Shown piece after piece: positions 41-44,656 of a stretch of DNA of 64,000 bases (the stretch's first letter is position 1; each line of letters begins with the position of its first letter). Source of the stretch: an uncultured Gammaproteobacteria bacterium (lineage in GTDB: Bacteria; Patescibacteriota; Microgenomatia; Levybacterales; UBA12049); NCBI GenBank assembly GCA_964416505.1, contig CAYQEJ010000004.1, forward strand, positions 59,331-123,330. The letters are read 5' to 3'. Both the position numbers and the translations under genes were made by a program. The notes under the pieces are model-generated. The model was not told the DNA's origin, searched no databases, and saw nothing but the letters and a program-made list of their open reading frames with translations.

Positions 41-1705
41 TTGATGATTCCTAGAAGCAGAGAGCGATCATCTCAATTAATTGATGCTTCCATAGACTCC
101 CGAGATAGAGCAAAAGAAAAAATTGAAACCATAAACCGAGAAAGACAGGCAAAAGGACTTAGGACATTTTCGTTAACTAGTGACATAGATTATTCTCAAA
201 CAGGATTTCATTTCCATAATAAAGGTCCTGTAGACGGCTACAATCTCCATTTCCACATGGCAGAAAGACCAGATTCTCCAAGATTAAGAGCTTATATCAC
301 ACTCTCTCTTGATGACATTGATCAGGTAGCAGATCATTTCATTGACCTCTCAAATACTCTTTATAATGCAGGTGTAAATTTTTCAGGAAAAGTTGATTCT
401 CCCGCCGGAGCAGCTGAAAGAACAGAAAATATGGTCTTTTACATAAATGACGCTGATCAACCTAAAGCTGCTGAGATAATAAGAAATTTCTTAAGTACAA
501 ATAGGATCGGCGAAGGTCATGTGCTAGCTGCGATCCCAAGCAAGCAAGAAGGATTATCGTGGGCATTTGAACCTGGTCAAGCAGAAGTCAAACTATATCA
601 AGAAATTACTGGGTCCATAAAAAATGCAGCAAGCTTTAACCAGTTTGCATCTGCAATGACAATTCCAACATATTTAACCCGATTAGCAAATGCACATGCT
701 ACGAATGGAAATACCTTAGAGGCTGAGACATTTAGAAAAGAAGCGGAAAGAGTAAGAACTCTAATTCGTTCTTATGAATCTTCACTTCCTAAACCACCTA
801 CGCCAAAAGGTGGAATAACTGGTAGAGTTTCGCAGGCAGGAGAAAGACTACAATCAACACTAAGAAGATCTGAGGGATCTAAACCTGAAAGATTTGATTA
901 TAAAAAGGCGTATGTTGAAAGATTTACAAGAGATGGAGAAAAAACTTCGGAAGACGGAGCAGATAACTATGTTTATCCACCTGATATAAGACAAGGATGG
1001 CAACTCCACTTAAATCTGGTCGCAAAATCCAGCAATCTCCTCCCTGAAATTTATAGCTTCCTTAAAGAAAATGGATTATTTGGAGAATTTAGATATAGTG
1101 AAAATCCCGATGATCAAGGAATTTTCAGTATATATGTGGGAAATAGAAACGACAGTCTTAAATTCGCAAGATTAATTCAGGAAAAGTTTGGTGACAGACT
1201 GGCGCCACCTACCCAAACTATGAAATTAAAAGACACTCCTCTGCTCGGAAGAGATGTGTCAATAGGAGCTTCCTTTGACTTAACAGAAGGACAAAAAGTA
1301 GACGGATTACCCAAAGTAGATGAAATGTTTAAGCGAGGCTCAGGAGGATTAATTTACCTGGAACAAGATGCACCAAGATCTTCATATGCTTCAGTCCGCC
1401 CTGAAGACATTGATCAGATTGTCGCAAACGCAGATGCGCAGTTTAGAAAAGTTTTCGGCGCATTCTACACTGGCTCAGGAGAAAATGAGTTTAATCCAAT
1501 AAATAGATTTGAAGAATCGGTTACGTCAACAAGAACTACAATACCCCCGCAAAGAACTCCCATTGCACCACCGCTTCCAATTATTTCACCGACTCCAGCT
1601 CCAAAAACTGCCTCAGCTCCTGTATTCACTAATAGACCGCATCTACCACCTGTATCTCCTATACCTAAAGGGTCTACCACTGCAACGCAGCCAAACTCTA
1701 CCTAA
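41..1705 (+). CDS. Hypothetical protein with an internally duplicated domain and a Pro/Thr/Ser-rich C-terminal tail. The reading frame stays open back to the window start, so it may be 5'-truncated.
   Basis: Long ORF. Two similar segments occur: HFHMAERPD...DDIDQVADHF near the N-terminus and LHLNL...EDIDQIVANADAQF near the C-terminus. The C-terminus is proline-rich (PPLPIISPTPAPK). GC content is higher than neighbouring genes. No family recognised. Confidence 0.5.
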   Translation: MMIPRSRERSSQLIDASIDSRDRAKEKIETINRERQAKGLRTFSLTSDIDYSQTGFHFHNKGPVDGYNLHFHMAERPDSPRLRAYITLSLDDIDQVADHFIDLSNTLYNAGVNFSGKVDSPAGAAERTENMVFYINDADQPKAAEIIRNFLSTNRIGEGHVLAAIPSKQEGLSWAFEPGQAEVKLYQEITGSIKNAASFNQFASAMTIPTYLTRLANAHATNGNTLEAETFRKEAERVRTLIRSYESSLPKPPTPKGGITGRVSQAGERLQSTLRRSEGSKPERFDYKKAYVERFTRDGEKTSEDGADNYVYPPDIRQGWQLHLNLVAKSSNLLPEIYSFLKENGLFGEFRYSENPDDQGIFSIYVGNRNDSLKFARLIQEKFGDRLAPPTQTMKLKDTPLLGRDVSIGASFDLTEGQKVDGLPKVDEMFKRGSGGLIYLEQDAPRSSYASVRPEDIDQIVANADAQFRKVFGAFYTGSGENEFNPINRFEESVTSTRTTIPPQRTPIAPPLPIISPTPAPKTASAPVFTNRPHLPPVSPIPKGSTTATQPNST

Positions 1706-1801
1706 AATTCCATAGCAGAAACCCAGAGAAGCGTAATCTAAACCTTCTTGAAATATTAAGATAGAAGCTGAGTAATGCTTAGGAATTAGATTTTCAAAAG
1801 C

Positions 1802-2473
1802 TTAACGCTTTTTTAAAGAGAACTTGGCTAGAAGAATTATTCCCAGATCAATTCCAATAGGAAATAACAAAACCCAAATACCCTTTTTCATAATTTCTAT
1901 AAAAGATTCAGAATTAAAATATTCTATTAGCACTTCTGGGGGTCTTATTCCTAAAAAGTAAGCTGCAATTATTACAAATACAATTACAATAAAAAGAAAA
2001 AGTGAACCTTCTAAATCTTTCTTGCTGGAAAACATCGTGTTTCCTATCTGAAATACCATAAAGAAAACTAATAAATAATTCCAGGGAATACTTAAAGGAG
2101 ATTTTTCAGATAGAAAATAAAAAACGAAAAAAGAAATGAGCATAATTCCGACCAAAACAGGAGCAAAACCGATTATAGCTCTTCTGAATGGATCTGTTTC
2201 TTCAATCCCTACGCTTCCCATTACTATCTTGTCTTCTGATGGCTCTGGAGAAAAGCTAAGACCTCCAGTACGAACCAGCATAGCTTCCGCAACCAAAAGA
2301 TGTGCAAGCTCATGAATTACTACACCTGGTAAAAGAAATAAATGAAAAAGCCTTATTGCAAGAGATTCATTCTTAGCTAATTTCATAAAAACATATGAAA
2401 TCAACCTGGTAAGAATTCTAGAAAGAAAGAAAAGCGTGATGAATTCTAGAATAAATATTAATAAATAGATCAC
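1802..2473 (-). CDS. Polytopic membrane protein with an HExxH motif, a putative intramembrane zinc metallopeptidase (M50-like).
   Basis: HELAHLLVAEA sits inside a hydrophobic segment. Multiple TM helices are predicted. Confidence 0.4.
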   Translation of the reverse strand: MIYLLIFILEFITLFFLSRILTRLISYVFMKLAKNESLAIRLFHLFLLPGVVIHELAHLLVAEAMLVRTGGLSFSPEPSEDKIVMGSVGIEETDPFRRAIIGFAPVLVGIMLISFFVFYFLSEKSPLSIPWNYLLVFFMVFQIGNTMFSSKKDLEGSLFLFIVIVFVIIAAYFLGIRPPEVLIEYFNSESFIEIMKKGIWVLLFPIGIDLGIILLAKFSLKKR

Positions 2474-2478
2474 TCAGC

Positions 2479-3660
2479 TTATTTTAACCTATTTATATTT
2501 TCTTCGCTCGGAATAACAAATAAAATATATAAAGCAAACGGAATAACAAATAAAATTATTTTTGGATGATATTCAAAAATTGGAATAATTAATAAATTTA
2601 AAAATGATATTAGGTAAATTATCTCTTCTTTTTTATTTTCCTTTGCAAAAATAAATAAACTAAGAACGAAACCAAAAAAAGCTGGCAAAGAATATCTAAA
2701 TACAGAAACAATTATGTGGTAATGGTAATCTGAAGGTAGAAATAAAAAAATTACAAAACAGATTGTTCCAATAAATAAATATTTAATTGACTTTGTTTTA
2801 CTTCTTTTCAAAAGATATCTGAACCAAATATAAAGTCCTGTAAAAAAACTAAGTATCCAAAATCCATATTCACCAAAGCCTGCGTTAAGAAAATCTATAA
2901 CTCCGGGTAAAGATTTAAATGAAACTTCCCAAACCTGATTACTCAAGCCATATTCTCCATAAAAAAATAAAAAAGGTTGAGGATAAAATGGATTTCCAGT
3001 AACTATATAATTTCTTGCATACCAAAATAAACCTAAAAATGAAAAAGGAATCATAAACAAAAATATTTTCTGAATACTATTTTTTGCAAATTCTTTGTTT
3101 ACATTTAGAAAAAATAATATTAAAAAATAAATCGGCCCAGTCAATTTAGATCCAATCAACATTCCACTTGAAACACCTAATAATAAAATGCTCTTAAACG
3201 ATAAAACGGATTTTTCCAATAAATATAAAGTCAGAATAAAAAAACCTAACAGCCATATATCTATAATTTGCATATTTATCCATCGAAACATAATCGGGGA
3301 AGATGAAACTGACACAGCAAATACACTTGCGTAACTGGAAGAAAATTTTAAATTTTTTGCCAAAATAAAACTTACTAAAAATACAAACAAAACTCCAAAA
3401 AAATTAAAAAGTTGAATTGGAATTTTCATAAAGATTAGCAAAGCAAGAATACCTTCAGAGGATCCAGGAAAAAACTTTAAATATTTTGCAGCTTCAAAAG
3501 TATTTGGATTTAAAAATGATCCATTAAGGAAAGATTTCGCAATTGGTATGTGATAGTTGAGACTATCCCCATCTGGCGTAGGATATGAAAACGCAAAAAA
3601 GAAAAAATATATTAGAAGATATATAAAACTAATTAGAACTAACTTAGAAAATAAATTCAT
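2479..3660 (-). CDS. Polytopic membrane protein, putative GT-C fold glycosyltransferase (PMT_2/ArnT-like).
   Basis: About 11 hydrophobic helices. The first extracytoplasmic loop carries PDGDSLNY...AKSFLNGSF, which resembles the D/E loop motif of GT-C enzymes. Confidence 0.35.
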   Translation of the reverse strand: MNLFSKLVLISFIYLLIYFFFFAFSYPTPDGDSLNYHIPIAKSFLNGSFLNPNTFEAAKYLKFFPGSSEGILALLIFMKIPIQLFNFFGVLFVFLVSFILAKNLKFSSSYASVFAVSVSSSPIMFRWINMQIIDIWLLGFFILTLYLLEKSVLSFKSILLLGVSSGMLIGSKLTGPIYFLILFFLNVNKEFAKNSIQKIFLFMIPFSFLGLFWYARNYIVTGNPFYPQPFLFFYGEYGLSNQVWEVSFKSLPGVIDFLNAGFGEYGFWILSFFTGLYIWFRYLLKRSKTKSIKYLFIGTICFVIFLFLPSDYHYHIIVSVFRYSLPAFFGFVLSLFIFAKENKKEEIIYLISFLNLLIIPIFEYHPKIILFVIPFALYILFVIPSEENINRLK

Positions 3661-3712
3661 TTCTAAAAATGGATTATACCAAATACTAATTTATGTAGAG
3701 TATAATACTTTA

Positions 3713-5161
3713 AAAATGAAGAAGCTTGGATTCACTCTATCATTCCTAATATTCTCAGCACTGTTTTTATTCGTTATTTTTTATCATACTCATGGAATTG
3801 TTCCATATGACGAAGGATGGTTTTTGCAGGCAGGAAAAAGATTACTAAATGGAGAAAAAATTTATAAAGATTTTGAATTTCTTTATAATCCAGGTGGAGC
3901 TTATTTAAATAAAATTGCTTTTAAGCTTTTAGGGGAATCTGTATTATCTTCAAGAATTATTGCTATTCTAAATACAACAGTATCTGTAATTTTCCTATTT
4001 AAAATATTTAGAAAAATAGAATTAAATGGAATTATTTCTTTGATTTTACTTTTTTCATTTGTTTTTTGGGGGGCAGGCCACATAAATTTTATTTGGCCTG
4101 TAATGATATGCTTAACCTTCGCAATAATATCGATATATTTATTCATAAGTTATTCTAATAAAGAAAGTTATTTTTTACTGGGAGTTCTTACATTTTTTAC
4201 TTTTTTCTTCAAACAAAACTTTGGCCTAGCCATATTTATAGCAAATATTATTTCAATACTTTTACTAAATAAAGAAAAATTTAAAAAAATTAAATTTTAT
4301 ATTTTAGGAATTATTTTTTTATTAATAGTACAAATAATTTACTTTTTAAACCTAGGAATACTTTCAGATTACTTAAAAGATATTTATTTTTATACATACG
4401 TTAAAATTTTTAAAGAAGGTGTTTTAAATTCAGACCTCCCATGGAATTACCCGGCACCCATATTTATTCAATTTTTTAAATTAGTTTTGTACTCATCGCC
4501 AATACTTATTTCATTATTTTCCATTTATTTAGTTGGGAATAAAAAAAATTTACTTTATATACCAATTATAATTATTTGTTTTTCGCTTCTAAGTATTAGG
4601 CCTACTACAGATTTTATTCATTTGACTCCTTTAATTTCACTTTCATTAATCTCGCTTGGTTTAATTTACATTCAAATAAAAAATTTATTTACAAAATTAA
4701 TAATCCTTATATTCTTTGTTTTTGTTTTTAGTTTTGGATTATATTCATCTTTCTATAGAAATTATTACAGATGGAATCCTCCTTTGGTGGGAAATAAATT
4801 CTATATTGAAAACAAACATGTAAAAATCTGGGCAGATAAAAAGGAATTTGAAAATATAAGTTTTTTAGAAAACCAACTTAAATCCTACCATGACGAAGAA
4901 GTATTTATTTATAATTTCGCCCCAATTTACTACTTAACTCTTGATAAGAATAATGCTACAAGATTTGATTATCTTCATAGTGGAATGATTTCCGAAAGTA
5001 ATGAGAATGAGATAATAATGGATTTAAATAAAAAGAAAACACGAATTATTATTTCCAATATTAATGTTTTTATTACTAGAACTAAAGTTGCTAGATATAT
5101 ACTAAGCAAATACAAACCAATAAAATCTGCAAATGAAATAACAGTTTGGAAATTGGATTAA
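3713..5161 (+). CDS. GT-C fold glycosyltransferase (ArnT/PMT family 39/83-like) integral membrane protein. The start is taken at MKKLGF rather than the track's upstream M.
   Basis: The N-terminal TM is followed by a loop YDEGWFLQAGKRLLNGEKIY, the DE motif typical of ArnT/PMT. Many TM helices follow. The upstream start in the track would overlap the convergent gene. Confidence 0.5.
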   Translation, partial: KMKKLGFTLSFLIFSALFLFVIFYHTHGIVPYDEGWFLQAGKRLLNGEKIYKDFEFLYNPGGAYLNKIAFKLLGESVLSSRIIAILNTTVSVIFLFKIFRKIELNGIISLILLFSFVFWGAGHINFIWPVMICLTFAIISIYLFISYSNKESYFLLGVLTFFTFFFKQNFGLAIFIANIISILLLNKEKFKKIKFYILGIIFLLIVQIIYFLNLGILSDYLKDIYFYTYVKIFKEGVLNSDLPWNYPAPIFIQFFKLVLYSSPILISLFSIYLVGNKKNLLYIPIIIICFSLLSIRPTTDFIHLTPLISLSLISLGLIYIQIKNLFTKLIILIFFVFVFSFGLYSSFYRNYYRWNPPLVGNKFYIENKHVKIWADKKEFENISFLENQLKSYHDEEVFIYNFAPIYYLTLDKNNATRFDYLHSGMISESNENEIIMDLNKKKTRIIISNINVFITRTKVARYILSKYKPIKSANEITVWKLD

Positions 5162-6147
5162 TTTTTCCAATTTTGTGGAAGAAGAGGACTACTTAACTCA
5201 ACTTCTTGAAATTTAGGTTTTTGATGCCCCTTCTTCTTTGCCCATCCCCATGTCTTTATTAATCCCTTTTCCAAATCAGTTCTATCTTTATACGCCAAAT
5301 ACTTTTTACTTAATCTATGATCACTTATTGCCTCTTTTACTTCCTGCGGCCTTTCTGGAAGATGAATGGGATTAATTTTGGAATTAGATATTTTAGATAT
5401 TAAATTTGCTAATTCATTTACAGTGTAGACATTGTCTGAACCTATATTAAACGTCATTCCATTTACTTTATTTCCCAGACATTTCACCAAGGCATCAACT
5501 ACATCATCTATATATGAGAAACATCTTTTTTGATTTCCTTTTCCATAAATATAATAAGGTTTATTTGCAAGAATAGAATTCATAAAAATTGTCACTACGT
5601 TTCTATATGGATCCTTCATGTTCTGTCTGGGACCATAAACATTGTGAGGTCTTGCTACAACAAAATCAAAATTGTGAATTTTACTTAAAATTTTTAATGC
5701 ATCTTCAAATGCTAGTTTTGAAATTCCATATAAATCTTCCGGCTTAGGCGTATCTTTTTCTTTAAAAGGTATTTGAAGACTACCATAAACAGCTATGCTT
5801 GAAGTAAAAATGAATTTTTTCATTCCACTTCTTATTCCAGCTGTTAATACTTTAATGCTGCCGTCAAAATTTCTAGAAGTTATGTCTACAGGTGAAAATT
5901 GAGCTTTATTTTCTGCGGCATTTGCAGCAAGATGATATATAACATCTGGTTTATATTCTGAAAGAATTTTATCTATTTTTTTAAAATTTCTTATATCTAC
6001 TTTTACTAACTTAGCTTTTTTATTGCAATTTTCTAAACTTCCTCCAGAAAAATCATCTAAAATTAAAACCTTATGTCCTTTAACAATCAATTTATCAACT
6101 AAATGACTTCCTATAAATCCTGCTCCACCTGTAACTACTATCTTCAT
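5158..6147 (-). CDS. NAD-dependent sugar-nucleotide epimerase/dehydratase (short-chain dehydrogenase/reductase (SDR) family).
   Basis: The N-terminus has MKIVVTGGAGFIGSHLVDKL (a Rossmann GxxGxxG motif). A YxxxK motif is present. The length of 329 aa fits. Confidence 0.8.
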   Translation of the reverse strand: MKIVVTGGAGFIGSHLVDKLIVKGHKVLILDDFSGGSLENCNKKAKLVKVDIRNFKKIDKILSEYKPDVIYHLAANAAENKAQFSPVDITSRNFDGSIKVLTAGIRSGMKKFIFTSSIAVYGSLQIPFKEKDTPKPEDLYGISKLAFEDALKILSKIHNFDFVVARPHNVYGPRQNMKDPYRNVVTIFMNSILANKPYYIYGKGNQKRCFSYIDDVVDALVKCLGNKVNGMTFNIGSDNVYTVNELANLISKISNSKINPIHLPERPQEVKEAISDHRLSKKYLAYKDRTDLEKGLIKTWGWAKKKGHQKPKFQEVELSSPLLPQNWKN

Positions 6148-6860
6148 ATCTTAAACCTATACCTTATTATCGTTTCAAACATTTTAAGTCCTACTAATAT
6201 AGACTTTTTCAATGATCCTGTGATTTTTGATTGACCTACTCTTTCATTATAATGAACAGGAACTTCTATGATTGAATTATTATTTAATAGAGCGAGAACA
6301 ATAAATTCTGAAAGAAAATAAGATCCTCCTACCTTAAACTTCGGAATTATATTTTCAATTGATGATCTTCTCATTACCCTAAAAGTACAACCACAATCCG
6401 TAAGAGATATAAAAGGATTATAAAGAAATTGAATTATTCTTGCTAAAACAATGTTTCCTATCCTTAAAAATCCATGCATATTAGCATTTTTTTCTATAAA
6501 TTTAGAGTTCGTCCTAGTTCCTAGAACAATTTCATATTTATCGATATATCGAAGCAGTTTTAATAAATCATTTGCTGAAAATGTTGCATCTGGTTCGCAA
6601 AAAGCTATTAAATCCCCTTTTACTTCTTTTAATCCTCTTCTAAGTGCATTTCCATATCCTTGTTTTTTTTCAAGAATTACTTTTGCTTTTTTTAATTTTG
6701 CAATTTCTGAGGTTCTATCTTTTGAATTATTATCAATAACCAAAATCTCATCAATTATTTTTAGTTTCTTAAAATCTGATATTGCTTTACCAATATTTTT
6801 CTCTTCATTATAAGCTGGAAAAATTAAAGAAATCTTTTTACCTTTGTACATTTTTACCAA
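6144..6860 (-). CDS. GT2 family glycosyltransferase, polyprenol-phosphate sugar transferase-like (DPM1/ArnC-like).
   Basis: Contains ISLIFPAYNEEKNI and VIDNNSKDRTSEIA, the DxD-type GT2 signatures. The gene overlaps the epimerase by 4 nt, which indicates an operon. Confidence 0.75.
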   Translation of the reverse strand: MVKMYKGKKISLIFPAYNEEKNIGKAISDFKKLKIIDEILVIDNNSKDRTSEIAKLKKAKVILEKKQGYGNALRRGLKEVKGDLIAFCEPDATFSANDLLKLLRYIDKYEIVLGTRTNSKFIEKNANMHGFLRIGNIVLARIIQFLYNPFISLTDCGCTFRVMRRSSIENIIPKFKVGGSYFLSEFIVLALLNNNSIIEVPVHYNERVGQSKITGSLKKSILVGLKMFETIIRYRFKI

Positions 6861-8293
6861 ATAGTTACTATTACAGACTGAAAGATAAACACTTGAACAA
6901 TCTGCAGCAAAAGGAGCAGAAAAAATTGCTGATTACGCAATTTTAATTTATTGGTACTGAAATTTGCAACAGTAATTATTAAAAAAGGAACAAATGGTAA
7001 CCAAATTCTGGCTGTCTCTGCTCTCACGCTCCCGGAAAAATTTACTGCTAACAAAATTATCAAGAATGAGACTCCAATAGCGTCAATTTTTGAAAAATTA
7101 AATTTACTTTTAATTAACAATCTTACATCACTAAACGCACCTAATAGAAATAAAACAGATAATGGGATTCCAGCAAAAAGGAAAAAATCATATAGATCAT
7201 AGAAGAGCCATATTAGATATCCTCTTGTAGACTGAGCAGATTCATGTAGAAACATTATTTTTCTTACCATTTCTATAAAATCTAATCCTAATATAAAGAG
7301 AATAAAAATTGGAAATAAAATTCCTAGTAGAAAATATAATCCAAATCTAAAATGTATAAAAAAATTCTTTTTCTTTAAAAATTCCAGCAAAAATAAAATT
7401 AAAAAGAATAACAAGATCGGAAGGAAAGTTAATGTAAAAAAAGCTCCAATGAATAATACAAATCCAGAAATCACAAAATTAAATTTATTCATTAACTTGT
7501 ATCCTCTTAGAAAGTAATAAAGAGAAATACTAGTAAATAGAGGCATAAAGATATCTATAAGAGGAGAAAACATCAATACGCTCGGTATGAATAATGAAAT
7601 AAATAATGCATTTTTTGCTGCTTTTTTTCCATAGGCAATTTTAGCTGATCCAAAAATAAAGATACTATACAAAGATGCAATAAATGAAATAATTATTCCT
7701 GAAAATATTCCATTTGTCTTTTGAACGATGTCTAGCTGATTCCATACTAATGAAATATTTTGCTCTGAAGGCTGCATGCTTAAAACAAATTTTAAAAGCG
7801 GTTCAAAAGGCCTAAGAAATAAATCAAGCAAATAATAAAGTATTATTCCCCCAGGAGGGTGAAATCGTGCATACATGGGAAATCTTTCAATATTTGTTAT
7901 AAATTCCCTAATAAACTCATTCAAATTAACAATATTTAATGATGCAGTAAAATACCCACTAACTAATGGATTTATCGTTCTACCCAGCAATACCTCAATT
8001 CCTGCTCTGTTAAAAAACAAAAAAGTTATTTGAATAAAAAATCCTATTAAAGTTAAAAATAAAAGCTTAGTTAAAGTTATTTCTTTAAATCTAACAAAAC
8101 AAATTAAAGTAATTAAGGATACCAAAAAGGGTGCCCAAAATTTTAAAAAATTAAAACTCGGCAGATATGTCCATCTCCAATCAGGAGAATATGGTGCTGG
8201 ACCAAATAAAAAAGGACTGAAATTAATTGAAATAAGAACCAGCAGAAAAATGGTAAAAAGAAAAACAAAATACAAGGACTTTGATTTATTCAC
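6854..8293 (-). CDS. Polytopic membrane protein immediately downstream of the major pilin gene. It may be an O-antigen-ligase-like (Wzy_C/TfpO-like) or GT-C oligosaccharyltransferase.
   Basis: 479 aa with about 12 hydrophobic helices. Its position mirrors pilA-tfpO arrangements. No catalytic motif could be verified by eye. Confidence 0.3.
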   Translation of the reverse strand: MNKSKSLYFVFLFTIFLLVLISINFSPFLFGPAPYSPDWRWTYLPSFNFLKFWAPFLVSLITLICFVRFKEITLTKLLFLTLIGFFIQITFLFFNRAGIEVLLGRTINPLVSGYFTASLNIVNLNEFIREFITNIERFPMYARFHPPGGIILYYLLDLFLRPFEPLLKFVLSMQPSEQNISLVWNQLDIVQKTNGIFSGIIISFIASLYSIFIFGSAKIAYGKKAAKNALFISLFIPSVLMFSPLIDIFMPLFTSISLYYFLRGYKLMNKFNFVISGFVLFIGAFFTLTFLPILLFFLILFLLEFLKKKNFFIHFRFGLYFLLGILFPIFILFILGLDFIEMVRKIMFLHESAQSTRGYLIWLFYDLYDFFLFAGIPLSVLFLLGAFSDVRLLIKSKFNFSKIDAIGVSFLIILLAVNFSGSVRAETARIWLPFVPFLIITVANFSTNKLKLRNQQFFLLLLLQIVQVFIFQSVIVTIW

Positions 8294-8353
8294 AGATAAC
8301 TTATAATACCAAAAAACTAAAGAAAATTTGAATATTAGTTAGTATACCGGAGA

Positions 8354-8815
8354 TTAGCGGGAGTTTGTGATTGTTTCTCCATTTTCAGGAGTCATTGCTG
8401 CAACTGTTACTCTATTATTTGCATCTTTTACTACGCTATATCCTGTTGTATATGTAGTACAGCTTGTTACTTCAGCACCATTGTTTACTTGAGGATCAAC
8501 TGGTAGAGCTGGGATGTATGTTGTTAATAGGTCAGTGCAAATATCAGCTTTTCCTGCACCACTACCAATTTCCTGTACTGTAGTAGTTATTCCTGCTGGA
8601 AGTACACCTTTGTGATCTGCTGAATATGCACCAATTGCATTAAGGATCTGAGTTACGTCACTTTTTCTCTTTGTGTTGTTTGCTTGTCCGAATTGTCTTG
8701 CTGGATTAATTGCGATTAAAACAATTGAGAGGAGGATTGCTAAAATTCCGATTACGACTAAAAGTTCTATTAATGTGAATCCTGAATTTTTCTTGAAAAC
8801 TTTTGGGCAGTTCAT
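8354..8815 (-). CDS. pilA: Major type IV pilin (PilA-like).
   Basis: Class III signal peptide ...KNSG|FTLIELLVVIGILAIL with Glu at +5. Two Cys lie in the C-terminal D-region. The length is 153 aa. Confidence 0.85.
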   Translation of the reverse strand: MNCPKVFKKNSGFTLIELLVVIGILAILLSIVLIAINPARQFGQANNTKRKSDVTQILNAIGAYSADHKGVLPAGITTTVQEIGSGAGKADICTDLLTTYIPALPVDPQVNNGAEVTSCTTYTTGYSVVKDANNRVTVAAMTPENGETITNSR

Positions 8816-8847
8816 AGTTATATATCTAGACTAAATAAAATTTAATT

Positions 8848-8861
8848 GCTTGTCAAGGGGG
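8848..8861 (-). promoter_or_regulatory. Promoter-like motif upstream of the major pilin gene. The minus strand reads CCCCCTTGACAAGC, which contains a -35 TTGACA.
   Basis: It shares GCTTGTCAAGrGGG with the hup upstream region and is followed by an AT-rich spacer about 35 nt before the pilA ATG. Confidence 0.35.
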
Positions 8862-8874
8862 TAATTTTTCAGCT

Positions 8875-9714
8875 TTAATTAGCTTCAGAATTATTTTCCC
8901 CAGTTCCACTATTTGATGAAAAATTTGACGAAAAATCTGGAGAAATTGCTGGTGAATTTGATGGCGCTATTACAGAAGGAACAGGAGCCGCTGGGTTATT
9001 AACCGGTAAAGCACTAGTTGGTTTTGGTGCCGAAAAAATATATTTATATAAAACAAATACCAGAATTAAAATAAGAAAAACAAAAACACCTGTTAACATA
9101 TAAAGCCTTTTGTTATCTTTTTTATTTTTCTCATTTGATTGCGCAAGCTGAGCCTGATCCGTGAGTAAGCTATAGGCTCTAAGATCTGGAACCTTATCTA
9201 AGATCAAACCAAGATCAAGATTGTTTTGTAAATTTGGCATAACTTCCATACAAGCTGAAAGAGGAATCACTGAGCTTACAACGAATCCAGAATCGACAAA
9301 CGCATTCCTAACAGCATCACATAGCTCCCTATTCGCAGCGGTAATCTTTGTCTTCTTAGTAAATTTCGATTTCTTGCTCAAGTAATCTTGAAATGGAACC
9401 AATTCTAAAAAATCTTGAACATTTTGATCTATCTGAACAGTACCATCAGTAAAATCTTTATCGAAAGTTACTGTTGTGGAAAGAAGAATTACAATATTCT
9501 CAGGAATTATTTTATAATTTGACACCAATGATTGAATCGCTGTCTCTATCTTTTTTTTGCTTATAACTTCAAGATCGCTAATCATATCCGGAGGAAAATC
9601 CACACCTACCGGAGAAGACAATCCGTGGTCATAAAAAAATCCTCTATTATTTTCTAGATAAAATATTCCTGTGGGTCTTTTTGGTAATTCTTTTTTTAAT
9701 TTATCTCTTTCCAT
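8875..9714 (-). CDS. Bitopic membrane protein within the pilus operon, with a cytoplasmic N-domain, one TM and a Pro/Ser-rich tail. It may play a PilM/PilN-like assembly role.
   Basis: A single TM helix (LYMLTGVFVFLILILVFVLY) follows a roughly 195-aa soluble domain. The C-terminal PxxP/S-rich region follows the TM. The gene sits between the minor and major pilin genes. Confidence 0.25.
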   Translation of the reverse strand: MERDKLKKELPKRPTGIFYLENNRGFFYDHGLSSPVGVDFPPDMISDLEVISKKKIETAIQSLVSNYKIIPENIVILLSTTVTFDKDFTDGTVQIDQNVQDFLELVPFQDYLSKKSKFTKKTKITAANRELCDAVRNAFVDSGFVVSSVIPLSACMEVMPNLQNNLDLGLILDKVPDLRAYSLLTDQAQLAQSNEKNKKDNKRLYMLTGVFVFLILILVFVLYKYIFSAPKPTSALPVNNPAAPVPSVIAPSNSPAISPDFSSNFSSNSGTGENNSEAN

Positions 9715-10064
9715 GAAGTAACAGTTAATTGATTATTTGTATTCGATGTCTGGACTTGGACTTTCCGAATTGTATTCGAAAAAGTAGCTGCACTAGTTAT
9801 CGTACCACTATTTACTACTATTACAACAGATCCACCATCAATACTCATAGTCTCTCCTGTATACGAAGGGTCACGAATCAACCTAAGTAACGCATTTTCA
9901 GCTCCTGTCTCTGCCATATAATATGCGGTAGTCCCCTGATCTACGCTACTAGTTGAGATTGCATTATTTAAAACAACCACCACGACTCCAGTAATTATCG
10001 CTAGGGAAATTGCCATAAAAAAAAGCAAAGTTATCAGCGCATTTCCTTTTTGAGATCTAATCAT
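9696..10064 (-). CDS. Minor pilin-like protein (PilX-like, atypical leader).
   Basis: The N-terminus MIRSQKG|NALITLLFFMAISLAII is a prepilin-like hydrophobic helix but lacks Glu at +5. Confidence 0.5.
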   Translation of the reverse strand: MIRSQKGNALITLLFFMAISLAIITGVVVVVLNNAISTSSVDQGTTAYYMAETGAENALLRLIRDPSYTGETMSIDGGSVVIVVNSGTITSAATFSNTIRKVQVQTSNTNNQLTVTSWKEIN

Positions 10065-10570
10065 CTAAGTCCTCCTGTAGTCTTAAAATTCACGACTTCT
10101 TTTCCTGATCTTCTATTTGCTTCTGAAGTTAAGGTATAAGAAATTTGTAATATATCTTTCCCATTGGAATCGCCCTCTATCCTTAGAAAAGAGAGATTCG
10201 ATACTTTTGTTTCATTGCTATTTAATTGGTCAGATGTGCCAGTAATAGAATTTTCTAGAATTAAATTCCCATCGTCTAATCCGTAAGATATATTCTGACT
10301 ATTAGCTACAATTGTCATAGCAGATCCTGAAGCACCTATTAGAGAAGGAATTGTTATACTTGATGCTCTTGACACATCATACCTAAATCTTTCTGCAATA
10401 TATCTTCCATCTACATTTACAGACGAAGTTGCTTGCGATTCTAATTGTAAATCAAAAACTGATCCATACATCTGAAGAGTTACTGCCAAAAGTATGCTAA
10501 ATATTCCCATATAAATGAGCAACTCTATTAAGGTGAATCCTTTTTTAACTTTAAATATTTTTTTAATCAT
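10061..10570 (-). CDS. Minor type IV pilin.
   Basis: KVKKG|FTLIELLIYMGIFSIL is a canonical prepilin cleavage motif with Glu at +5. Confidence 0.75.
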   Translation of the reverse strand: MIKKIFKVKKGFTLIELLIYMGIFSILLAVTLQMYGSVFDLQLESQATSSVNVDGRYIAERFRYDVSRASSITIPSLIGASGSAMTIVANSQNISYGLDDGNLILENSITGTSDQLNSNETKVSNLSFLRIEGDSNGKDILQISYTLTSEANRRSGKEVVNFKTTGGLR

Positions 10571-13530: not shown

Positions 13531-14051
13531 CAGTTTACCCCCGTAATAACACCATACCTATTTATAGTTATAATTATTTCTTTATTAATTGCTATCGATC
13601 TGAGCGTTATAGTATTTGATGATGATGAATAACCTACCATTTCTCCACTTAGGGCTGAGAAAAGAAGAGTATTACTCGGTAATGTAGTACTCTTAATTTC
13701 TAGATCAGAAGGCAAATCTACAGTAAAATTAGTCGAATCTCCGCTGTTGTAGGTTCCACCATGAAACAAAATATATTTATTTGACATAAAATATATTCCG
13801 TAATTATCAGCTGAAGCTCTTCCCTCCGTGTTTCCAGTCATCGCCTTTATTTGCTGAGCTCTAATATCAGAAACAAGCTTATCTGTATTTGAAGTTTCAG
13901 AGGCGGATCCCTGAGCACGCAGTAAATTGAAAGTTATAACTCCAAAAAGGACCATCATAATTGAAGAAGCAAGAAGAATCTCAATAAAACTAAAACCTTT
14001 TTGAGACTTAAATTTCTTTAAATGTATAAATCTTGGCATACTATCTAGCAC
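13530..14051 (-). CDS. Minor type IV pilin (GspH/PilE-like).
   Basis: FKSQKG|FSFIEILLASSIMMVLFGVI is a prepilin motif. Confidence 0.75.
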   Translation of the reverse strand: MLDSMPRFIHLKKFKSQKGFSFIEILLASSIMMVLFGVITFNLLRAQGSASETSNTDKLVSDIRAQQIKAMTGNTEGRASADNYGIYFMSNKYILFHGGTYNSGDSTNFTVDLPSDLEIKSTTLPSNTLLFSALSGEMVGYSSSSNTITLRSIAINKEIIITINRYGVITGVN

Positions 14052-16869: not shown

Positions 16870-18603
16870 TTGGAAACAATGAAGCTAATCGCATTTATAG
16901 TTTTTTTAATTGCAGGAATTTTTATTACATATCCCTGGATCTTTCATTTAAGTGATTTCGTAACTGGGTATGGAGACAATTTCGTTTATACATGGATACA
17001 TACTTGGGTAATTGAATCTATAATAAATGGAAATATTACACAAATTTTCAATACTAATATTTTCTATCCTTATCAGGTAGGGCTTTCAGTCTCTGATCCA
17101 AATATATCAACAGCAATCCTCTCAATACCCATTTACTTGTTAACTAGAGAGCCAATTTCGACTGTAAATTTCACAACAATATTTTCTATAGTTTTCCTAG
17201 GGTTTTCCATTTACTTACTTTCTTATTATTTAACAAAAAATTATCTAGCTTCTATTTTTTCCGGACTGCTCATAGCATTTTCACCGGCATATCTTAGTTT
17301 CTATGGACATTTACAAATGATGTCTATTGCCTTTACTCCACTTTCTATTCTTTGTTTTTTAATTTTTATAAAAACCAAAAAACAAAAAAATCTAATAATT
17401 TCTTTATTTTTATTTCTTTTACAAACTTATAATAATTTTTTGGGAGGCTACTTTATTCTTTTTTCCTATTTGATCATTTTTTTATTTAATTTAATTGGAA
17501 ATAAATCAAAAACAATTGGTCTGATTTCCAAAAAAAATATTATTATTTTTATTTCTTTTTTTGCACTAATTATTCCAGTCGCTAATTCATACTTTTCGGT
17601 TTCCAAGGAGTTTAATTACAAAAGAGATATTAGAGATGCAGTTCATTTCGCAAACCAACCTGAAGATTTTCTCCTAACTATGGAATTTAGCCGTTTACAA
17701 AAGCCCTTAAAATCACTTCCTTTTAATCAGGTTTCACAAAATTCAGAATTTAAACCTGCATTTTTAGGATTTATATTTAGTCTTTTGTTCTTATTCTCAA
17801 TTTTTTATTTTTTTAAAAATTTAAAAAGGAAAAACATATATTTAAATTCATTTATGACTATAGCTGCTCTCGGATTTGTCTTAAGCCTAGGCCCCGTACT
17901 TCATCTTGGTAGGCAAACCATACATAATCCTATTATTCCTCTCCCTTATGCTCTTTTTTATTATATTGTTCCCGGATTTCAAGGATTCAGGAATTCAGCG
18001 AGATGGGAAGTTCTCATGCTTATCGGGGCTTCCGTTGTAATAGCTGTTATTCTTAGCAAAGTTTTTGGAAAATTTAGTACCAAGAAACAATTCATAATTT
18101 ATTCTCTTCTAACATTAGTGTGCATAATTGAATTAAATCTTCCTCTTAAGTTCGTAAAAATGCAGTCAATAAAAAATATTCCCCAAGAATACCATTGGCT
18201 CGCAACAACTCCTGAGGATACAAAACTAATTGAAATGCCGGTTTACAACTGGAACATGTTCCCCTATGGCAATCAAGAACTTTGGAGACTTTATTATTCA
18301 ACGAGTAATTTCAGAAGAACCGTAAATGGAACTGGAGGATTTACTCCACCTCCTTGGCAGGAAATGGCATATGAACTAGATGAAAATTTCCCAAATGAAA
18401 AATCCATCACCAAACTAAAGAATCTCAACCTCAACTATATTCTTGTTCATAAAAATGAATTTGATAAATTAAATAGTGATAAATTTACAATAAATAAAAA
18501 AATTATACCTAGTGGAGAATTCGTTATTAGAAATTTAAATAAAAATCCAGAATTAAAACTTATCAACAGATTTGGGGATACGTATATTTACAGCCTTAAT
18601 TAG
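16870..18603 (+). CDS. Polytopic membrane protein with a C-terminal soluble domain; a putative GT-C-like glycosyltransferase. The likely ATG start is at 16879.
   Basis: About 12 TM helices. An early loop carries TGYGDNFVYTW. A roughly 150-aa C-terminal extracytoplasmic domain follows. Confidence 0.3.
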   Translation: METMKLIAFIVFLIAGIFITYPWIFHLSDFVTGYGDNFVYTWIHTWVIESIINGNITQIFNTNIFYPYQVGLSVSDPNISTAILSIPIYLLTREPISTVNFTTIFSIVFLGFSIYLLSYYLTKNYLASIFSGLLIAFSPAYLSFYGHLQMMSIAFTPLSILCFLIFIKTKKQKNLIISLFLFLLQTYNNFLGGYFILFSYLIIFLFNLIGNKSKTIGLISKKNIIIFISFFALIIPVANSYFSVSKEFNYKRDIRDAVHFANQPEDFLLTMEFSRLQKPLKSLPFNQVSQNSEFKPAFLGFIFSLLFLFSIFYFFKNLKRKNIYLNSFMTIAALGFVLSLGPVLHLGRQTIHNPIIPLPYALFYYIVPGFQGFRNSARWEVLMLIGASVVIAVILSKVFGKFSTKKQFIIYSLLTLVCIIELNLPLKFVKMQSIKNIPQEYHWLATTPEDTKLIEMPVYNWNMFPYGNQELWRLYYSTSNFRRTVNGTGGFTPPPWQEMAYELDENFPNEKSITKLKNLNLNYILVHKNEFDKLNSDKFTINKKIIPSGEFVIRNLNKNPELKLINRFGDTYIYSLN

Positions 18604-43909: not shown

Positions 43910-44656
43910 ATGAATGATCTTTCTGAAAAAAGAAAAGAAGCTATAAAAAAATATCCCAAACTAGGAGAAGTGTCCGATGAAAATTTTCCTAAACATATTT
44001 TTATAATTCCTGATGGAAACAGAAGGTATGCTTCGAAAAACAATAAACCTGCATTTTGGGGACATGAAAAAGGATTTAAAGTAGCAATTAATTTACTTAG
44101 ATTTTTCAGACCATTTCCGATAAAAACAGTGACACTTTGGGGTTTTTCTTCTGACAATTGGAAAAGAGACACTGGGGAAATTAAGAATCTCATGCGAATC
44201 TTCGGATTCATAATAGACAACTACTTAGATGAAATTAAGGAGTACAACTCCAGATTTGTTCATCTCGGGAGACGCGATAGATTACCAAAAAATCTGCTTA
44301 ATAAGATAGAAAAGGCTGAGAGAGAAACTAAGAATAATACTGGTCAGATTGTCTGTCTGGCGCTGGACTTCGGCGGAGAAGACTCTAACGTAAGAAGCGC
44401 TTTAAAAGCCAGGCAAACAAACTTTGAAATAAATGAAGAAACGATTTGGAAATTAAGAGACACTGAAGGCTTAATAAGATCAGCAGATTTAATCTTTAGA
44501 ACCAGCGAAAAAAGAACATCTGATGTGGGTTTTCTGAACGGAAAACACTCTGTATTGTTTTTTGCAGAAGATAAATTATTCCCTGAAGTAACTGAAGATG
44601 ACCTAGCAGATGCAATTTATTATTATTCACAAACAAAAAGAAACGAAGGAAAATGA
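43910..44656 (+). CDS. uppS: Undecaprenyl (isoprenyl) diphosphate synthase.
   Basis: IPDGNRRYA is a cis-prenyltransferase signature. A second conserved region ...FRTS... is present. Confidence 0.85.
   Translation: MNDLSEKRKEAIKKYPKLGEVSDENFPKHIFIIPDGNRRYASKNNKPAFWGHEKGFKVAINLLRFFRPFPIKTVTLWGFSSDNWKRDTGEIKNLMRIFGFIIDNYLDEIKEYNSRFVHLGRRDRLPKNLLNKIEKAERETKNNTGQIVCLALDFGGEDSNVRSALKARQTNFEINEETIWKLRDTEGLIRSADLIFRTSEKRTSDVGFLNGKHSVLFFAEDKLFPEVTEDDLADAIYYYSQTKRNEGK

What the first reader, a model, noticed from the sequence alone, without database searches (positions are those of the whole stretch)
2479..8815. Glycosylation gene set directly downstream of the major pilin (pilA-tfpO-like arrangement)
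The major pilin gene is followed immediately on the same strand by:
- a 479-aa 12-helix membrane protein
- a GT2 polyprenol-phosphate glycosyltransferase (overlapping the next gene by 4 nt)
- an NAD-dependent sugar epimerase
- two more GT-C-like (ArnT/PMT DE-loop) membrane proteins nearby.
On the other side of the pilus operon (16870-18603) lies a fourth candidate GT-C-like membrane protein.
In Pseudomonas aeruginosa strain 1244, pilA is followed by tfpO, an O-antigen-ligase-like oligosaccharyltransferase that glycosylates the pilin C-terminal Ser. The pilin here ends ...ETITNSR with a penultimate Ser. Together these suggest a dedicated lipid-linked pathway decorating the pilin or other surface proteins.
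Basis: inference. Interest (0 to 1): 0.6.

Follow-up and report, generated by a model that had tools for sequence, protein, structure and literature searches.

The report
Lipid-linked sugar-transfer genes beside a pilin gene
Next to the main pilus-subunit gene of an uncultured ultra-small (Levybacteria-type) bacterium sits a real gene cassette for adding lipid-carried sugars to something on the cell surface.

Summary
The genes are real and at the stated coordinates. Downstream of a type IV pilin (8354-8815, -) lie a 479-aa membrane protein, a Dpm1/ArnC/PpgS-like GT2, a GalE-like 4-epimerase, a PMT_2 protein (481 aa, on the opposite strand) and a 393-aa membrane protein.

AlphaFold models (pLDDT ~89) of the 479-aa and 393-aa proteins match only GT-C glycosyltransferases (STT3, PglB, ALG3/9/12, ArnT, Pmt). 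No protein has a Wzy_C signature, so this is not a TfpO-type system. The closest pilus precedent is TfpW, a GT-C enzyme.

The module works by the known scheme: UDP-sugar, then polyprenyl-phosphate-sugar, then GT-C transfer outside the membrane.

Pilin as acceptor is weakly supported:
- Pilin adjacency arose once, in one clade of 8 species.
- More distant orthologues sit by GT2/epimerase or other GT-C genes, not pili.
- About 27 lineages with pilins 54-83% identical lack the cassette downstream, including one with an 83%-identical pilin.
- The C-terminal Ser/Thr-Arg is conserved family-wide with or without the cassette.
- A conserved -10-like box precedes the GT-C start codon.

My best reading is a compact GT-C set that builds or decorates a membrane-anchored surface glycoconjugate. 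Pilin glycosylation remains possible (about 0.25). This is a new member of a known kind, of modest interest.

The parts
8354..8815 (-). Major type IV pilin (153 aa). It is the last gene of a PilB-PilC-pseudopilin operon (16780-8354). It is a possible acceptor, but this is unproven.
   Evidence: Pfam N_methyl 4.7e-9 and NCBIfam GspG/pilin hits. A TTGACA-type promoter-like sequence lies just upstream. The operon was verified by Pfam: T2SSE 1e-126, T2SSF 8e-45.
8294..8353 (-). 60-nt pilin-to-GT-C spacer with a promoter-like element (TTCAAA-18-TATTAT, with TG). No terminator is predicted.
   Evidence: The TGnTATnAT box 11-16 nt upstream of the GTG start is conserved in all 7 relatives. Those relatives additionally carry a 72-73-aa two-TM ORF here, which this genome has lost.
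6854..8293 (-). Compact GT-C-fold glycosyltransferase (479 aa, all-membrane, no soluble domain). It is a distant PMT_2 relative.
   Evidence: The window copy has no Pfam hit, but 19 of 30 family members hit PMT_2 (best 2.4e-10). AF2 model: pLDDT 89.4, pTM 0.92. The top 25 Foldseek PDB hits are all GT-C enzymes, TM 0.4-0.49. An acidic residue at position 38 (26 Asp, 4 Glu) follows TM1, and R96, H145, D247, R357, D369, E426 and R429 are invariant.
6144..6860 (-). GT2 polyprenyl-phosphate sugar synthase (238 aa, no TM segment). It is Dpm1/PpgS-like. An ATG at 6851 is an alternative start.
   Evidence: Pfam Glycos_transf_2 5.6e-25. NCBIfam: AglJ 1e-27, Dol-P-hexose transferase 5e-21, ArnC 8e-12, PpgS 9e-11, all below cut-off. 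PDB: DPMS 5mlz and ArnC 9hwj. No TM segment.
5158..6147 (-). NAD-dependent UDP-hexose 4-epimerase-like SDR (329 aa).
   Evidence: Pfam Epimerase 2e-56. Best PDB match is Thermotoga UDP-glucose 4-epimerase 4zrm, 9e-55. NCBIfam GalE scores 154.9 bits against a cut-off of 262.3. The GGAGFIGS and YGISK motifs are present, and SSIAVYG lacks the dehydratase Asp/Glu (read).
3716..5161 (+). PMT_2-family GT-C protein (481 aa) on the opposite strand. It is an insertion relative to close relatives.
   Evidence: Pfam PMT_2 4.8e-10. A YDEG motif follows TM1. The exact 481-aa product is in the public collection. It is absent between the epimerase and the 393-aa gene in relatives. Homologues lie 1.7-3.5 kb from GTC479 orthologues in L004, L014, L017, L025 and L038.
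2479..3660 (-). Second conserved compact GT-C-fold protein (393 aa).
   Evidence: AF2 model pLDDT 89.6. Foldseek top hit is ArnT 5ezm (5.6e-4, TMq 0.51), followed by PglB, ALG3/9/12, Pmt4 and AftB. G31-D32 after TM1 is invariant. It follows the epimerase directly in the relatives that keep the epimerase; in L010 it follows GT2.
16870..18603 (+). 577-aa membrane protein (DUF6311/DUF7657 family). It is a candidate GT-C and a recurrent neighbour of GTC479 orthologues elsewhere.
   Evidence: Weak Pfam DUF7657 hit, 1e-3. Homologues carry PF19830 and PF24677. D36 in TGxGDE is invariant. hhalign gives only 41% (A1) and 5% (A2) probability. A homologue lies immediately downstream of GTC479 orthologues in L017, L022, L027 and L035, E 1e-118 to 1e-178.
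43910..44656 (+). Undecaprenyl-diphosphate synthase (context only). It shows the organism makes the polyprenyl carrier the module needs.
   Evidence: Pfam Prenyltransf 2e-42.

Best explanation
Region 2479-8293 is a cassette for polyprenyl-monophosphate-sugar-dependent glycosylation on the outer face of the cytoplasmic membrane.

Proposed steps:
1. The GalE-like SDR interconverts a UDP-hexose or UDP-HexNAc. This is inferred from family membership.
2. The TM-less Dpm1/PpgS-like GT2 transfers that sugar to polyprenyl phosphate at the inner face. This is inferred from its closest characterised relatives.
3. The lipid-sugar is flipped. No flippase gene was identified.
4. Two conserved compact GT-C enzymes (479 aa and 393 aa) transfer the sugar to acceptors outside the membrane. 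In this genome a third, PMT_2-type GT-C may also act, and perhaps the 577-aa protein. The fold is shown; activity and acceptor are inferred.

The GT-C proteins are small and all-membrane, with no soluble peptide-binding domain (ALG3/9/12- or PimE-like in build). They recur next to other GT-C paralogues rather than next to pili. The acceptor is therefore most likely a membrane-anchored surface glycoconjugate, such as a lipoglycan, a lipid-linked glycan or a cell-wall polymer, built or decorated stepwise from one lipid-sugar donor.

Its position after the pilin gene is a lineage-specific insertion between the pilin gene and a conserved downstream gene. That position is not by itself evidence that the pilin is the target.
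For: - Fold and family assignments.
- Operon-like packing: GT-C/GT2 overlap or 2-6 nt gaps; GT2/epimerase 4-nt overlap; epimerase and the 393-aa gene abut in relatives.
- The GT-C + GT2 + epimerase trio is retained in L003 and L006 (GT-C 39-42% identical) in a DsbA/thioredoxin neighbourhood without any pilus genes.
- Other orthologues have a different adjacent GT2: L017, L027, L032.
- Other orthologues have adjacent GT-C paralogues: an M577 homologue in L017, L022, L027 and L035, and a PMT481 homologue in L004, L014, L017, L025 and L038.
- GT-C/GT-C fusion proteins exist in the family (P0358, P0369).
- Pilus-linked copies form a single clade.
- The cassette is absent after homologous pilins in roughly 27 lineages. 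In L054 (pilin 83% identical) the gene order is pilin, an unrelated ORF, then the M223 homologue.
- A conserved -10-like box lies directly before the GT-C start codon.
- Synonymous-site GC is lower in the cassette than in the pilus operon (GC3 0.15-0.22 against 0.20-0.27).
- UppS is present in the window.
- Precedents for the scheme: CsbB/YfhO (PMC5836110) and PpgS/Rv3632/Rv3779 (PMC3485146).
Against: - No acceptor, sugar or flippase is identified. The argument from compact architecture to a lipid-anchored acceptor is an inference, and some protein-modifying GT-Cs (such as DPY19) also lack large soluble domains.
- Same-strand adjacency to the pilin gene, with no predicted terminator, has persisted through about 50% divergence of the GT-C protein in 8 species.
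- Two other lineages carry unrelated GT-C-type genes immediately next to homologous pilins (L079, L126). This hints at a real pilin/GT-C affinity.
- Nothing is known of lipoglycans or teichoic-like polymers in this lineage.
Confidence: 0.55

Rival explanations
1. Dedicated pilin O-glycosylation, working like P. aeruginosa TfpW. The GT-C encoded after the pilin gene transfers single sugars from polyprenyl-phosphate-sugar to Ser/Thr of the pilin at the outer membrane face, before or during pilus assembly. The GT2 and epimerase supply the donor.
For: - The GT-C gene is 60 nt downstream of the pilin gene on the same strand, with no terminator predicted.
- The arrangement is kept in all 8 species of the clade.
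- TfpW is a GT-C encoded directly after pilA, with an essential acidic loop-1 motif.
- The pilin has Thr/Ser clusters and a conserved penultimate Ser.
- Two other lineages have a different GT-C-type gene right after a homologous pilin: L079 (9 TM + TPR, a TfpW-like build) and L126 (TMEM260-like O-mannosyltransferase, 2e-23). These were the only GT-C-type genes found among the large or TM-rich ORFs Pfam-scanned in the ~7 kb downstream of about 27 lineages.
Against: - The adjacency has a single evolutionary origin.
- About 25 more distant orthologues (42% identity or less) have no pilus operon within 10 kb.
- The cassette is absent downstream of pilins 54-83% identical, including L054.
- The C-terminal Ser/Thr-Arg is conserved irrespective of the cassette.
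- The 479-aa protein has no TPR or other soluble domain.
- A conserved promoter-like box precedes it, and relatives have another gene in between.
- Two or three GT-Cs are more than a single pilin modification needs.
Confidence: 0.25
2. Broad-spectrum protein O-glycosylation, working like actinobacterial Ppm1/Pmt. The GT-Cs glycosylate many exported proteins as they emerge, possibly including pilins and S-layer or adhesin proteins. Neighbouring the pilin gene is incidental.
For: - The family is a distant PMT_2 relative.
- Foldseek hits include Pmt1/Pmt4, PglB and STT3.
- In L003 and L006 the trio sits beside DsbA/thioredoxin genes, which act on exported proteins.
- SecA lies 3.6 kb from the pilus operon here and directly upstream of PilB in relatives.
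Against: - There is no MIR, TPR or other acceptor-binding domain.
- Similarity to Pmt is no better than to lipid-glycan GT-Cs. The best TM-scores normalised to the target are ALG12 (0.49) and ALG3 (0.51).
- No glycoproteome data exist for this group. The Saccharibacteria pilus study only predicts sites.
Confidence: 0.15
3. The genes are neighbours by chance in a compact genome and do not form one pathway.
For: Such genomes are gene-dense and largely co-directional. Genes downstream of homologous pilins are highly varied.
Against: - The GT-C/GT2/epimerase trio recurs in a different neighbourhood with a different strand arrangement.
- The genes overlap or abut.
- GT2 plus GT-C is an established functional pairing.
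Confidence: 0.05

Closest known systems
TfpW of Pseudomonas aeruginosa Pa5196/PA7 (GT-C pilin arabinosyltransferase; bioRxiv 10.1101/2020.04.19.049825)
   Same: Both are GT-C-type membrane glycosyltransferases encoded immediately downstream of the major pilin gene. Both have an acidic motif in the first external loop. Both depend on a lipid-phosphate-linked monosaccharide donor made by separate genes.
   Different: TfpW is 646 aa with 11 TM segments and a large periplasmic TPR domain. The 479-aa protein is all-membrane. TfpW's donor genes are unlinked and make D-arabinofuranose, whereas here a Dpm1-like GT2 and a 4-epimerase are in the cassette. Sequence homology to TfpW could not be tested. 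Pilin modification is not shown here.
TfpO/PilO of P. aeruginosa 1244 (Wzy_C O-antigen-ligase-like oligosaccharyltransferase)
   Same: Gene position directly after pilA. A hydroxy amino acid near the pilin C-terminus.
   Different: TfpO belongs to a different superfamily (Wzy_C), and no Wzy_C hit was found here. TfpO uses Und-PP-linked O-antigen units, not monophosphate-linked single sugars. Its site is the terminal Ser, whereas here Ser is penultimate and conserved regardless of the cassette.
CsbB/YfhO and GtlA/GtlB (Bacillus and Listeria teichoic acid glycosylation), GtrB/GtrC, ArnC/ArnT
   Same: The same logic: a cytoplasmic GT2 makes C55-P-sugar, and a GT-C encoded beside it transfers the sugar outside the membrane (PMC5836110). 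The GT2's closest solved relatives include ArnC.
   Different: Those GT2s carry C-terminal TM helices, and this one has none. No GtrA/ArnEF-type flippase gene is present. Here there are two to four GT-Cs for one GT2. The acceptors (teichoic acid, O-antigen, lipid A) are not known to exist in this lineage.
PpgS (Rv3631) / Rv3632 / Rv3779 of Mycobacterium tuberculosis, and Ppm1 with the mannosyltransferase GT-Cs (PMC3485146)
   Same: A TM-less GT2 makes a polyprenyl-P-sugar from a UDP-sugar, and GT-C enzymes consume it to decorate or extend a cell-envelope glycan. Several GT-Cs share one donor. Relatives of this locus have a small two-TM protein gene nearby, reminiscent of Rv3632.
   Different: There is only distant sequence similarity (PpgS NCBIfam 9e-11, far below cut-off). 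The small membrane protein is missing from this window, and its role is unknown.

Membership tests
TfpO/PilO-type pilin oligosaccharyltransferase (Wzy_C) | Wzy_C / O-antigen ligase domain (PF04932) | tested here: not met
   No Wzy_C hit for any cluster protein or for 30 + 41 family members. The fold matches are to GT-C enzymes, and no O-antigen ligase appears among them.
TfpO/PilO-type pilin oligosaccharyltransferase (Wzy_C) | Gene immediately downstream of the major pilin gene | tested here: met
   60-nt gap on the same strand. In relatives a 73-aa ORF intervenes.
TfpO/PilO-type pilin oligosaccharyltransferase (Wzy_C) | C-terminal Ser of the pilin as a cassette-dependent acceptor | tested here: inconclusive
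   Ser is penultimate, not terminal. Ser/Thr-Arg is conserved in 29 pilins with or without the cassette. Modification itself is not testable here.
TfpW-type GT-C pilin glycosyltransferase | GT-C fold with an acidic motif in external loop 1 | tested here: met
   All top 25 Foldseek hits are GT-C enzymes. D/E38 after TM1 is conserved in 30 of 30 members. It is a single acidic residue, not a DDx motif.
TfpW-type GT-C pilin glycosylltransferase | Large periplasmic C-terminal TPR domain | tested here: not met
   The 479-aa model is helical membrane bundle throughout and has no TPR hit.
TfpW-type GT-C pilin glycosyltransferase | Sequence homology to TfpW, and demonstrated pilin modification | not testable with these tools
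GT-C superfamily / Pfam PMT_2 | Match to PMT_2 (PF13231) above the gathering score | tested here: inconclusive
   The window's 479-aa copy has no hit, but 19 of 30 homologues do (best 2.4e-10), as do longer family members. The 481-aa protein passes (40.3 bits against a cut-off of 26.1). The 393-aa family has no hit but has the GT-C fold.
Polyprenyl-phosphate sugar synthase GT2 (Dpm1/GtrB/ArnC/PpgS/AglJ) | GT-A GT2 catalytic domain, most similar to polyprenyl-P-utilising members | tested here: met
   Glycos_transf_2 5.6e-25. Best NCBIfam matches are AglJ, Dol-P-hexose transferase, ArnC and PpgS, all below equivalog cut-offs. Best PDB matches are DPMS 5mlz and ArnC.
Polyprenyl-phosphate sugar synthase GT2 (Dpm1/GtrB/ArnC/PpgS/AglJ) | C-terminal TM helices (GtrB/ArnC/archaeal DPMS subtype) | tested here: not met
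   No hydrophobic segment in the 238 aa. It resembles the TM-less PpgS / Ppm1-D2 / human DPM1 subtype instead.
Three-component GtrABC-like glycosylation system | Dedicated small flippase (GtrA, ArnE/F or GtcA type) | tested here: not met
   No such protein was found between 1 and 20 kb by Pfam or NCBIfam. The 223-aa HExxH membrane protein has no family hit and is syntenic with the pilus operon even without the cassette.
GalE-type UDP-hexose 4-epimerase | Extended SDR with GxxGxxG and YxxxK motifs, scoring at equivalog level | tested here: inconclusive
   The motifs are present. Thermotoga GalE 4zrm matches at 9e-55. TIGR01179 scores 154.9 against a cut-off of 262.3. The substrate is unknown.

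The most novel reading that the evidence does not exclude
The slot immediately after the major pilin gene in this group of ultra-small bacteria is a variable accessory-gene position, as it is downstream of pilA in Pseudomonas aeruginosa. Different lineages have filled it with different GT-C glycosyltransferases: the compact 479-aa family with its own donor-synthesis genes here, a multi-TM + TPR protein in L079, and a TMEM260-like enzyme in L126. All of them would O-glycosylate the pilin. This would be the first pilin glycosylation system described in the Candidate Phyla Radiation. It would also be the first to use a minimal, domain-less GT-C with a linked polyprenyl-phosphate-hexose supply.
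Probability: 0.2. Interest if true: 0.55.

Novelty: new member of a known kind. Interest (0 to 1): 0.3.

Why it matters
Type IV pili are the best-documented host-contact organelles of episymbiotic ultra-small bacteria. Their surface chemistry is essentially unknown: the one genetic study of such pili only predicts glycosylation sites (PMC11623550).

This locus gives a concrete, compact and testable set of genes: one lipid-sugar synthase, one epimerase and two minimal GT-C transferases. They could be reconstituted with the neighbouring pilin to settle whether these organisms glycosylate pili or instead build a surface glycolipid or glycopolymer.

Either answer would assign a function to three uncharacterised membrane-protein families. 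The 479-aa family has 613 representatives at 50% identity with E <= 1e-30, and the 393-aa and 577-aa families returned 151 and 233 90%-identity clusters, mostly unnamed metagenomic sequences, with the few named ones from Levybacteria, Woesebacteria and other Patescibacteria. As it stands, this is a plausible but ordinary glycosylation cluster.

Tried and rejected
- Profile searches of the three membrane-protein families against PDB sequences found nothing meaningful.
- Profile-profile comparisons among the 479-aa, 393-aa and 577-aa families were not significant. The best was 41% probability. Their common GT-C nature therefore rests on predicted folds for the first two only.
- The terminator scan between pilin and the GT-C gene found none, in the whole 1700-9800 interval. 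This does not prove co-transcription, because a conserved -10-like box lies before the GT-C start.
- I considered the 223-aa HExxH membrane protein (1802-2473) as a flippase, a prepilin peptidase or a cassette member. I rejected it as a cassette member: it stays next to the pilus operon in L054, where the cassette is absent, and it has no family hit.
- I considered the C-terminal Ser as a TfpO-like site and rejected it as evidence, since it is conserved family-wide.
- I tested whether the N-terminal YfhO-like halves of two GT-C/GT-C fusion proteins are homologous to the 577-aa family. The result was not significant.
- A lipid A (ArnT-type) target is unlikely on general grounds, because this lineage is not known to make LPS. 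This rests on background knowledge and was not tested.

Full report
**1. What is in the sequence**

ORF listing and translation confirm a minus-strand type IV pilus operon:
- PilB, 15098-16780 (T2SSE 1e-126).
- PilC, 14041-15096 (T2SSF 8e-45).
- Four pilin-like or accessory genes, including a 986-aa pilin-like protein.
- A 279-aa one-TM protein.
- The 153-aa major pilin, 8354-8815 (N_methyl 4.7e-9).

Continuing on the same strand after the pilin:
- A 479-aa polytopic protein (6854-8293).
- A 238-aa GT2 (6144-6860; Glycos_transf_2 5.6e-25).
- A 329-aa SDR (5158-6147; Epimerase 2e-56). The GT2 and SDR genes overlap by 4 nt.
- A 393-aa polytopic protein (2479-3660).
- A 223-aa HExxH membrane protein (1802-2473).

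Between the SDR and the 393-aa gene, on the plus strand, lies a PMT_2 protein. Its true start is the ATG at 3716 (481 aa). That exact product is in the public collection, and it scores PMT_2 4.8e-10.

A 577-aa polytopic protein lies divergently upstream of PilB (16870-18603).

The rest of the window is housekeeping: SecA, SerRS, class I LysRS, GreA, RecA, UppS, RpoA and SecY. No further GT-C-type gene appeared among the 20 larger ORFs scanned there. Homologues of these proteins come from Candidatus Levybacteria and other Patescibacteria MAGs.

**2. Identity of the proteins**

The 479-aa protein:
- It has no Pfam or NCBIfam hit itself. However, 19 of 30 homologues hit PMT_2.
- An AlphaFold2 model built on the family alignment is confident (pLDDT 89.4, pTM 0.92).
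- The 25 best Foldseek matches in the PDB are all GT-C enzymes: STT3, AglB, PglB, ALG9/12, Pmt1/4, Emb, AftA and DPY19. Probabilities are about 1 and TM-scores 0.4-0.49. Transporters and receptors follow with probability below 0.1.
- An acidic residue (D38; 26 Asp and 4 Glu) sits in the loop after TM1. Seven further charged residues are invariant.

The 393-aa protein gives an equally confident model (pLDDT 89.6). Its best match is ArnT (5ezm, E 5.6e-4, TMq 0.51), followed by PglB, ALG3/9/12, Pmt4 and AftB. It has an invariant Gly31-Asp32 after TM1.

Neither protein has a soluble domain. No Wzy_C signal exists anywhere.

The GT2 has no TM segment. Its closest characterised relatives are polyprenyl-phosphate sugar synthases:
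- NCBIfam AglJ, Dol-P-hexose transferase, ArnC and PpgS, all below cut-off.
- PDB Pyrococcus DPMS and ArnC.

The SDR is closest to Thermotoga UDP-glucose 4-epimerase (9e-55). It has the epimerase-type SSxxVYG and YxxxK motifs, but it is below the GalE equivalog cut-off.

The 577-aa protein belongs to a large, well-conserved family that carries DUF6311/DUF7657. It has an invariant Asp36 in a TGxGDE loop. I could not show a GT-C fold for it.

**3. What travels with what**

Anchoring on the 479-aa family, I examined 43 loci from species-representative genomes plus context look-ups. A distance tree shows the following.
- The pilus-linked copies form one clade: the window (the deepest branch) plus seven species, 47-50% identical.
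- All seven relatives have the order PilB...pilin(s) - 73-aa ORF - GT-C - GT2 - epimerase - 393-aa gene - 223-aa gene. The epimerase is missing in L010. The short L009 contig ends within GT2, so only the upstream part of the order is seen there.
- The nearest outgroups, L003 and L006, keep GT-C + GT2 (on the opposite strand) + epimerase. They sit beside DsbA/thioredoxin genes and have no pilus genes.
- Further orthologues lack a pilus operon within 10 kb. Several have a different GT2 abutting (L017, L027, L032).
- In four lineages (L017, L022, L027, L035) a homologue of the 577-aa protein lies immediately downstream (E 1e-118 to 1e-178).
- In five lineages (L004, L014, L017, L025, L038) a homologue of the 481-aa PMT_2 protein lies 1.7-3.5 kb away.
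- Two family members are fusions of a YfhO-type GT-C with a 479-type GT-C.

So the conserved partners of this GT-C are a GT2, an epimerase and other GT-Cs, not pilins. In the window, the 481-aa and 577-aa genes are insertions relative to close relatives, where SecA abuts PilB and the epimerase abuts the 393-aa gene.

**4. Anchoring on the pilin instead**

A metagenome scan returned 80 loci with pilins 54-83% identical.
- None of the ~40 loci with at least 2 kb of downstream sequence (about 27 independent lineages) has a homologue of the 479-aa, GT2, epimerase or 393-aa proteins downstream.
- L054 is the most informative. It has a complete syntenic pilus operon and an 83%-identical pilin. This is followed by an unrelated 397-aa ORF on the other strand, then the homologue of the 223-aa protein (2e-96), then the giant ORF seen in the relatives.
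- The glycosylation genes are therefore an indel between the pilin gene and the 223-aa gene. The 223-aa gene belongs to the older synteny, not to the cassette.
- Elsewhere the gene after the pilin is very varied: L,D-transpeptidase, release factor, response regulator, CofD, peptidases, transporters and others.
- There are two exceptions. L079 has a 574-aa protein with 9 TM segments, a GDDE motif and C-terminal TPRs (a TfpW-like build), 339 nt downstream on the same strand. L126 has a TMEM260-like O-mannosyltransferase (2e-23), convergent, 62 nt away.
- These two were the only GT-C-type genes found among the large or TM-rich ORFs that were Pfam-scanned in the ~7 kb downstream of these lineages, and both occupy the first position after the pilin. 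This is a hint of affinity, not a statistic.

**5. Other points bearing on pilin as target**

- The C-terminal ...I(S/T)(I/V)(S/T)R, with penultimate Ser/Thr and terminal Arg, is conserved across all 29 pilins examined, including those without the cassette. It therefore carries no information about the cassette.
- No terminator is predicted between the pilin and the GT-C gene.
- However, a TGnTATnAT box 11-16 nt before the GTG start is conserved in all eight genomes. The pilin has its own strong promoter-like site.
- In relatives a 72-73-aa two-TM ORF separates the two genes. It is under purifying selection (384 synonymous against 82 non-synonymous codon differences). The window has lost it.
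- Cassette genes have lower synonymous-site GC (0.15-0.22) than pilus and housekeeping genes (0.19-0.27).

**6. Mechanism**

Shown here: the folds and families, the gene packing, and the recurrence of the GT-C/GT2/epimerase trio.

Inferred from established knowledge of Dpm1/ArnC/GtrB/CsbB/PpgS systems: UDP-sugar is epimerised, loaded onto polyprenyl phosphate by the GT2, flipped, and used by the GT-Cs outside the membrane. UppS in the window shows the organism makes the polyprenyl carrier.

Inferred more weakly: the GT-Cs are minimal all-membrane enzymes, multiple, and habitually clustered with each other. On that basis the acceptor is more likely a membrane-anchored glycan, lipoglycan or wall polymer than a folded protein.

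I give about 0.55 to this reading, 0.25 to dedicated pilin glycosylation, 0.15 to broad protein O-glycosylation and 0.05 to no functional link.

**7. Comparison with known systems, and novelty**

As a family, this is not TfpO/PilO. In arrangement it resembles TfpW but lacks the TPR domain. In logic it is a member of the widespread GT2 + GT-C polyprenyl-phosphate-sugar systems.

The GT-C families themselves are uncharacterised and fairly large. The 479-aa family has 613 representatives at E <= 1e-30.

Verdict: a new member of a known kind, with modest interest (0.3). Interest would rise to about 0.55 if pilin glycosylation were demonstrated.

Noticed in passing
L008:9729-9950, L011:9735-9956, L030:9699-9920 and 4 others; absent from window 8294-8353: A conserved 72-73-aa two-TM protein (MAKKKSPHHEKN...LINKKK) is encoded between the pilin and GT-C genes in seven relatives. 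It is under purifying selection (384 synonymous against 82 non-synonymous codon differences). It is deleted in this window. It could be a pilus or glycosylation accessory, reminiscent of Rv3632 or DPM2/3.
   Followed up: partly
window 1802-2473 (-): A 223-aa five-TM protein with an HELAH (HExxH) motif and no Pfam or NCBIfam hit. It stays next to the pilus operon in L054, where the glycosylation cassette is absent. It is therefore linked to the pilus locus, not to the cassette. It may be a membrane metalloprotease.
   Followed up: partly
L079:7825-9549 (+) and L126:612-2573 (-): Two other lineages with homologous pilins have a different GT-C-type gene as the immediate neighbour. One is a 9-TM + GDDE + C-terminal TPR protein with TfpW-like architecture. 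The other is a TMEM260-like protein O-mannosyltransferase (Pfam 2e-23).
   Followed up: partly
window 16870-18603 (+): The 577-aa DUF6311/DUF7657 membrane protein belongs to an unusually well-conserved family: the 120 best 90%-identity clusters listed (of 233 hits) are all at least 43% identical. It has about 47 invariant residues and a C-terminal soluble part. It sits directly after 479-family orthologues in four other lineages, but in this genome it is on the far side of the pilus operon.
   Followed up: partly
window 6854-8293 (-), residues 24 and 30: The window's GT-C copy has Phe30 where the other 29 family members have Arg, and Asn24 where 23 have Asp. Together with the loss of the small ORF, this may mean altered or decaying function in this genome.
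   Followed up: no
window 2479-6860: Synonymous-site GC of the cassette genes is lower than in pilus and housekeeping genes (0.19-0.27): GT2 0.146, epimerase 0.173, 393-aa gene 0.175, 481-aa gene 0.178. This is consistent with a separate history or with low expression.
   Followed up: partly
P0358 and P0369 (family members): These ~1230-aa proteins fuse a YfhO/PTPS_related-type GT-C half to a 479-type GT-C half. This is a Rosetta-stone hint that this family works together with another GT-C.
   Followed up: partly
L007:19806-21458 and L002:11350-11897: Relatives carry a UDP-glucose 6-dehydrogenase, and (seen in L007; the L002 locus ends first) a second SDR, about 5 kb beyond the 223-aa gene, after a 1500-1900-aa ORF. 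This is a possible extra nucleotide-sugar supply. The window has a 554-aa Pro-rich protein (41-1705; weak HopA1 hit, 9e-4) in the corresponding place.
   Followed up: no
window 10570-13530 (-): A 986-aa protein with a prepilin-type N-terminus lies inside the pilus operon (a giant minor pilin or tip adhesin candidate). It shrinks to 642-665 aa in some relatives (L009, L013, L054).
   Followed up: no
L008, L009, L010, L030, L034 compared with window 8354-8815: Most close relatives carry two tandem, nearly identical copies of the major pilin gene. This window, L011 and L013 have one.
   Followed up: no
window 25030-26544 (-): Lysyl-tRNA synthetase of the class I type (PF01921, 1e-85), the archaeal-type enzyme, in a bacterial genome.
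   Followed up: no
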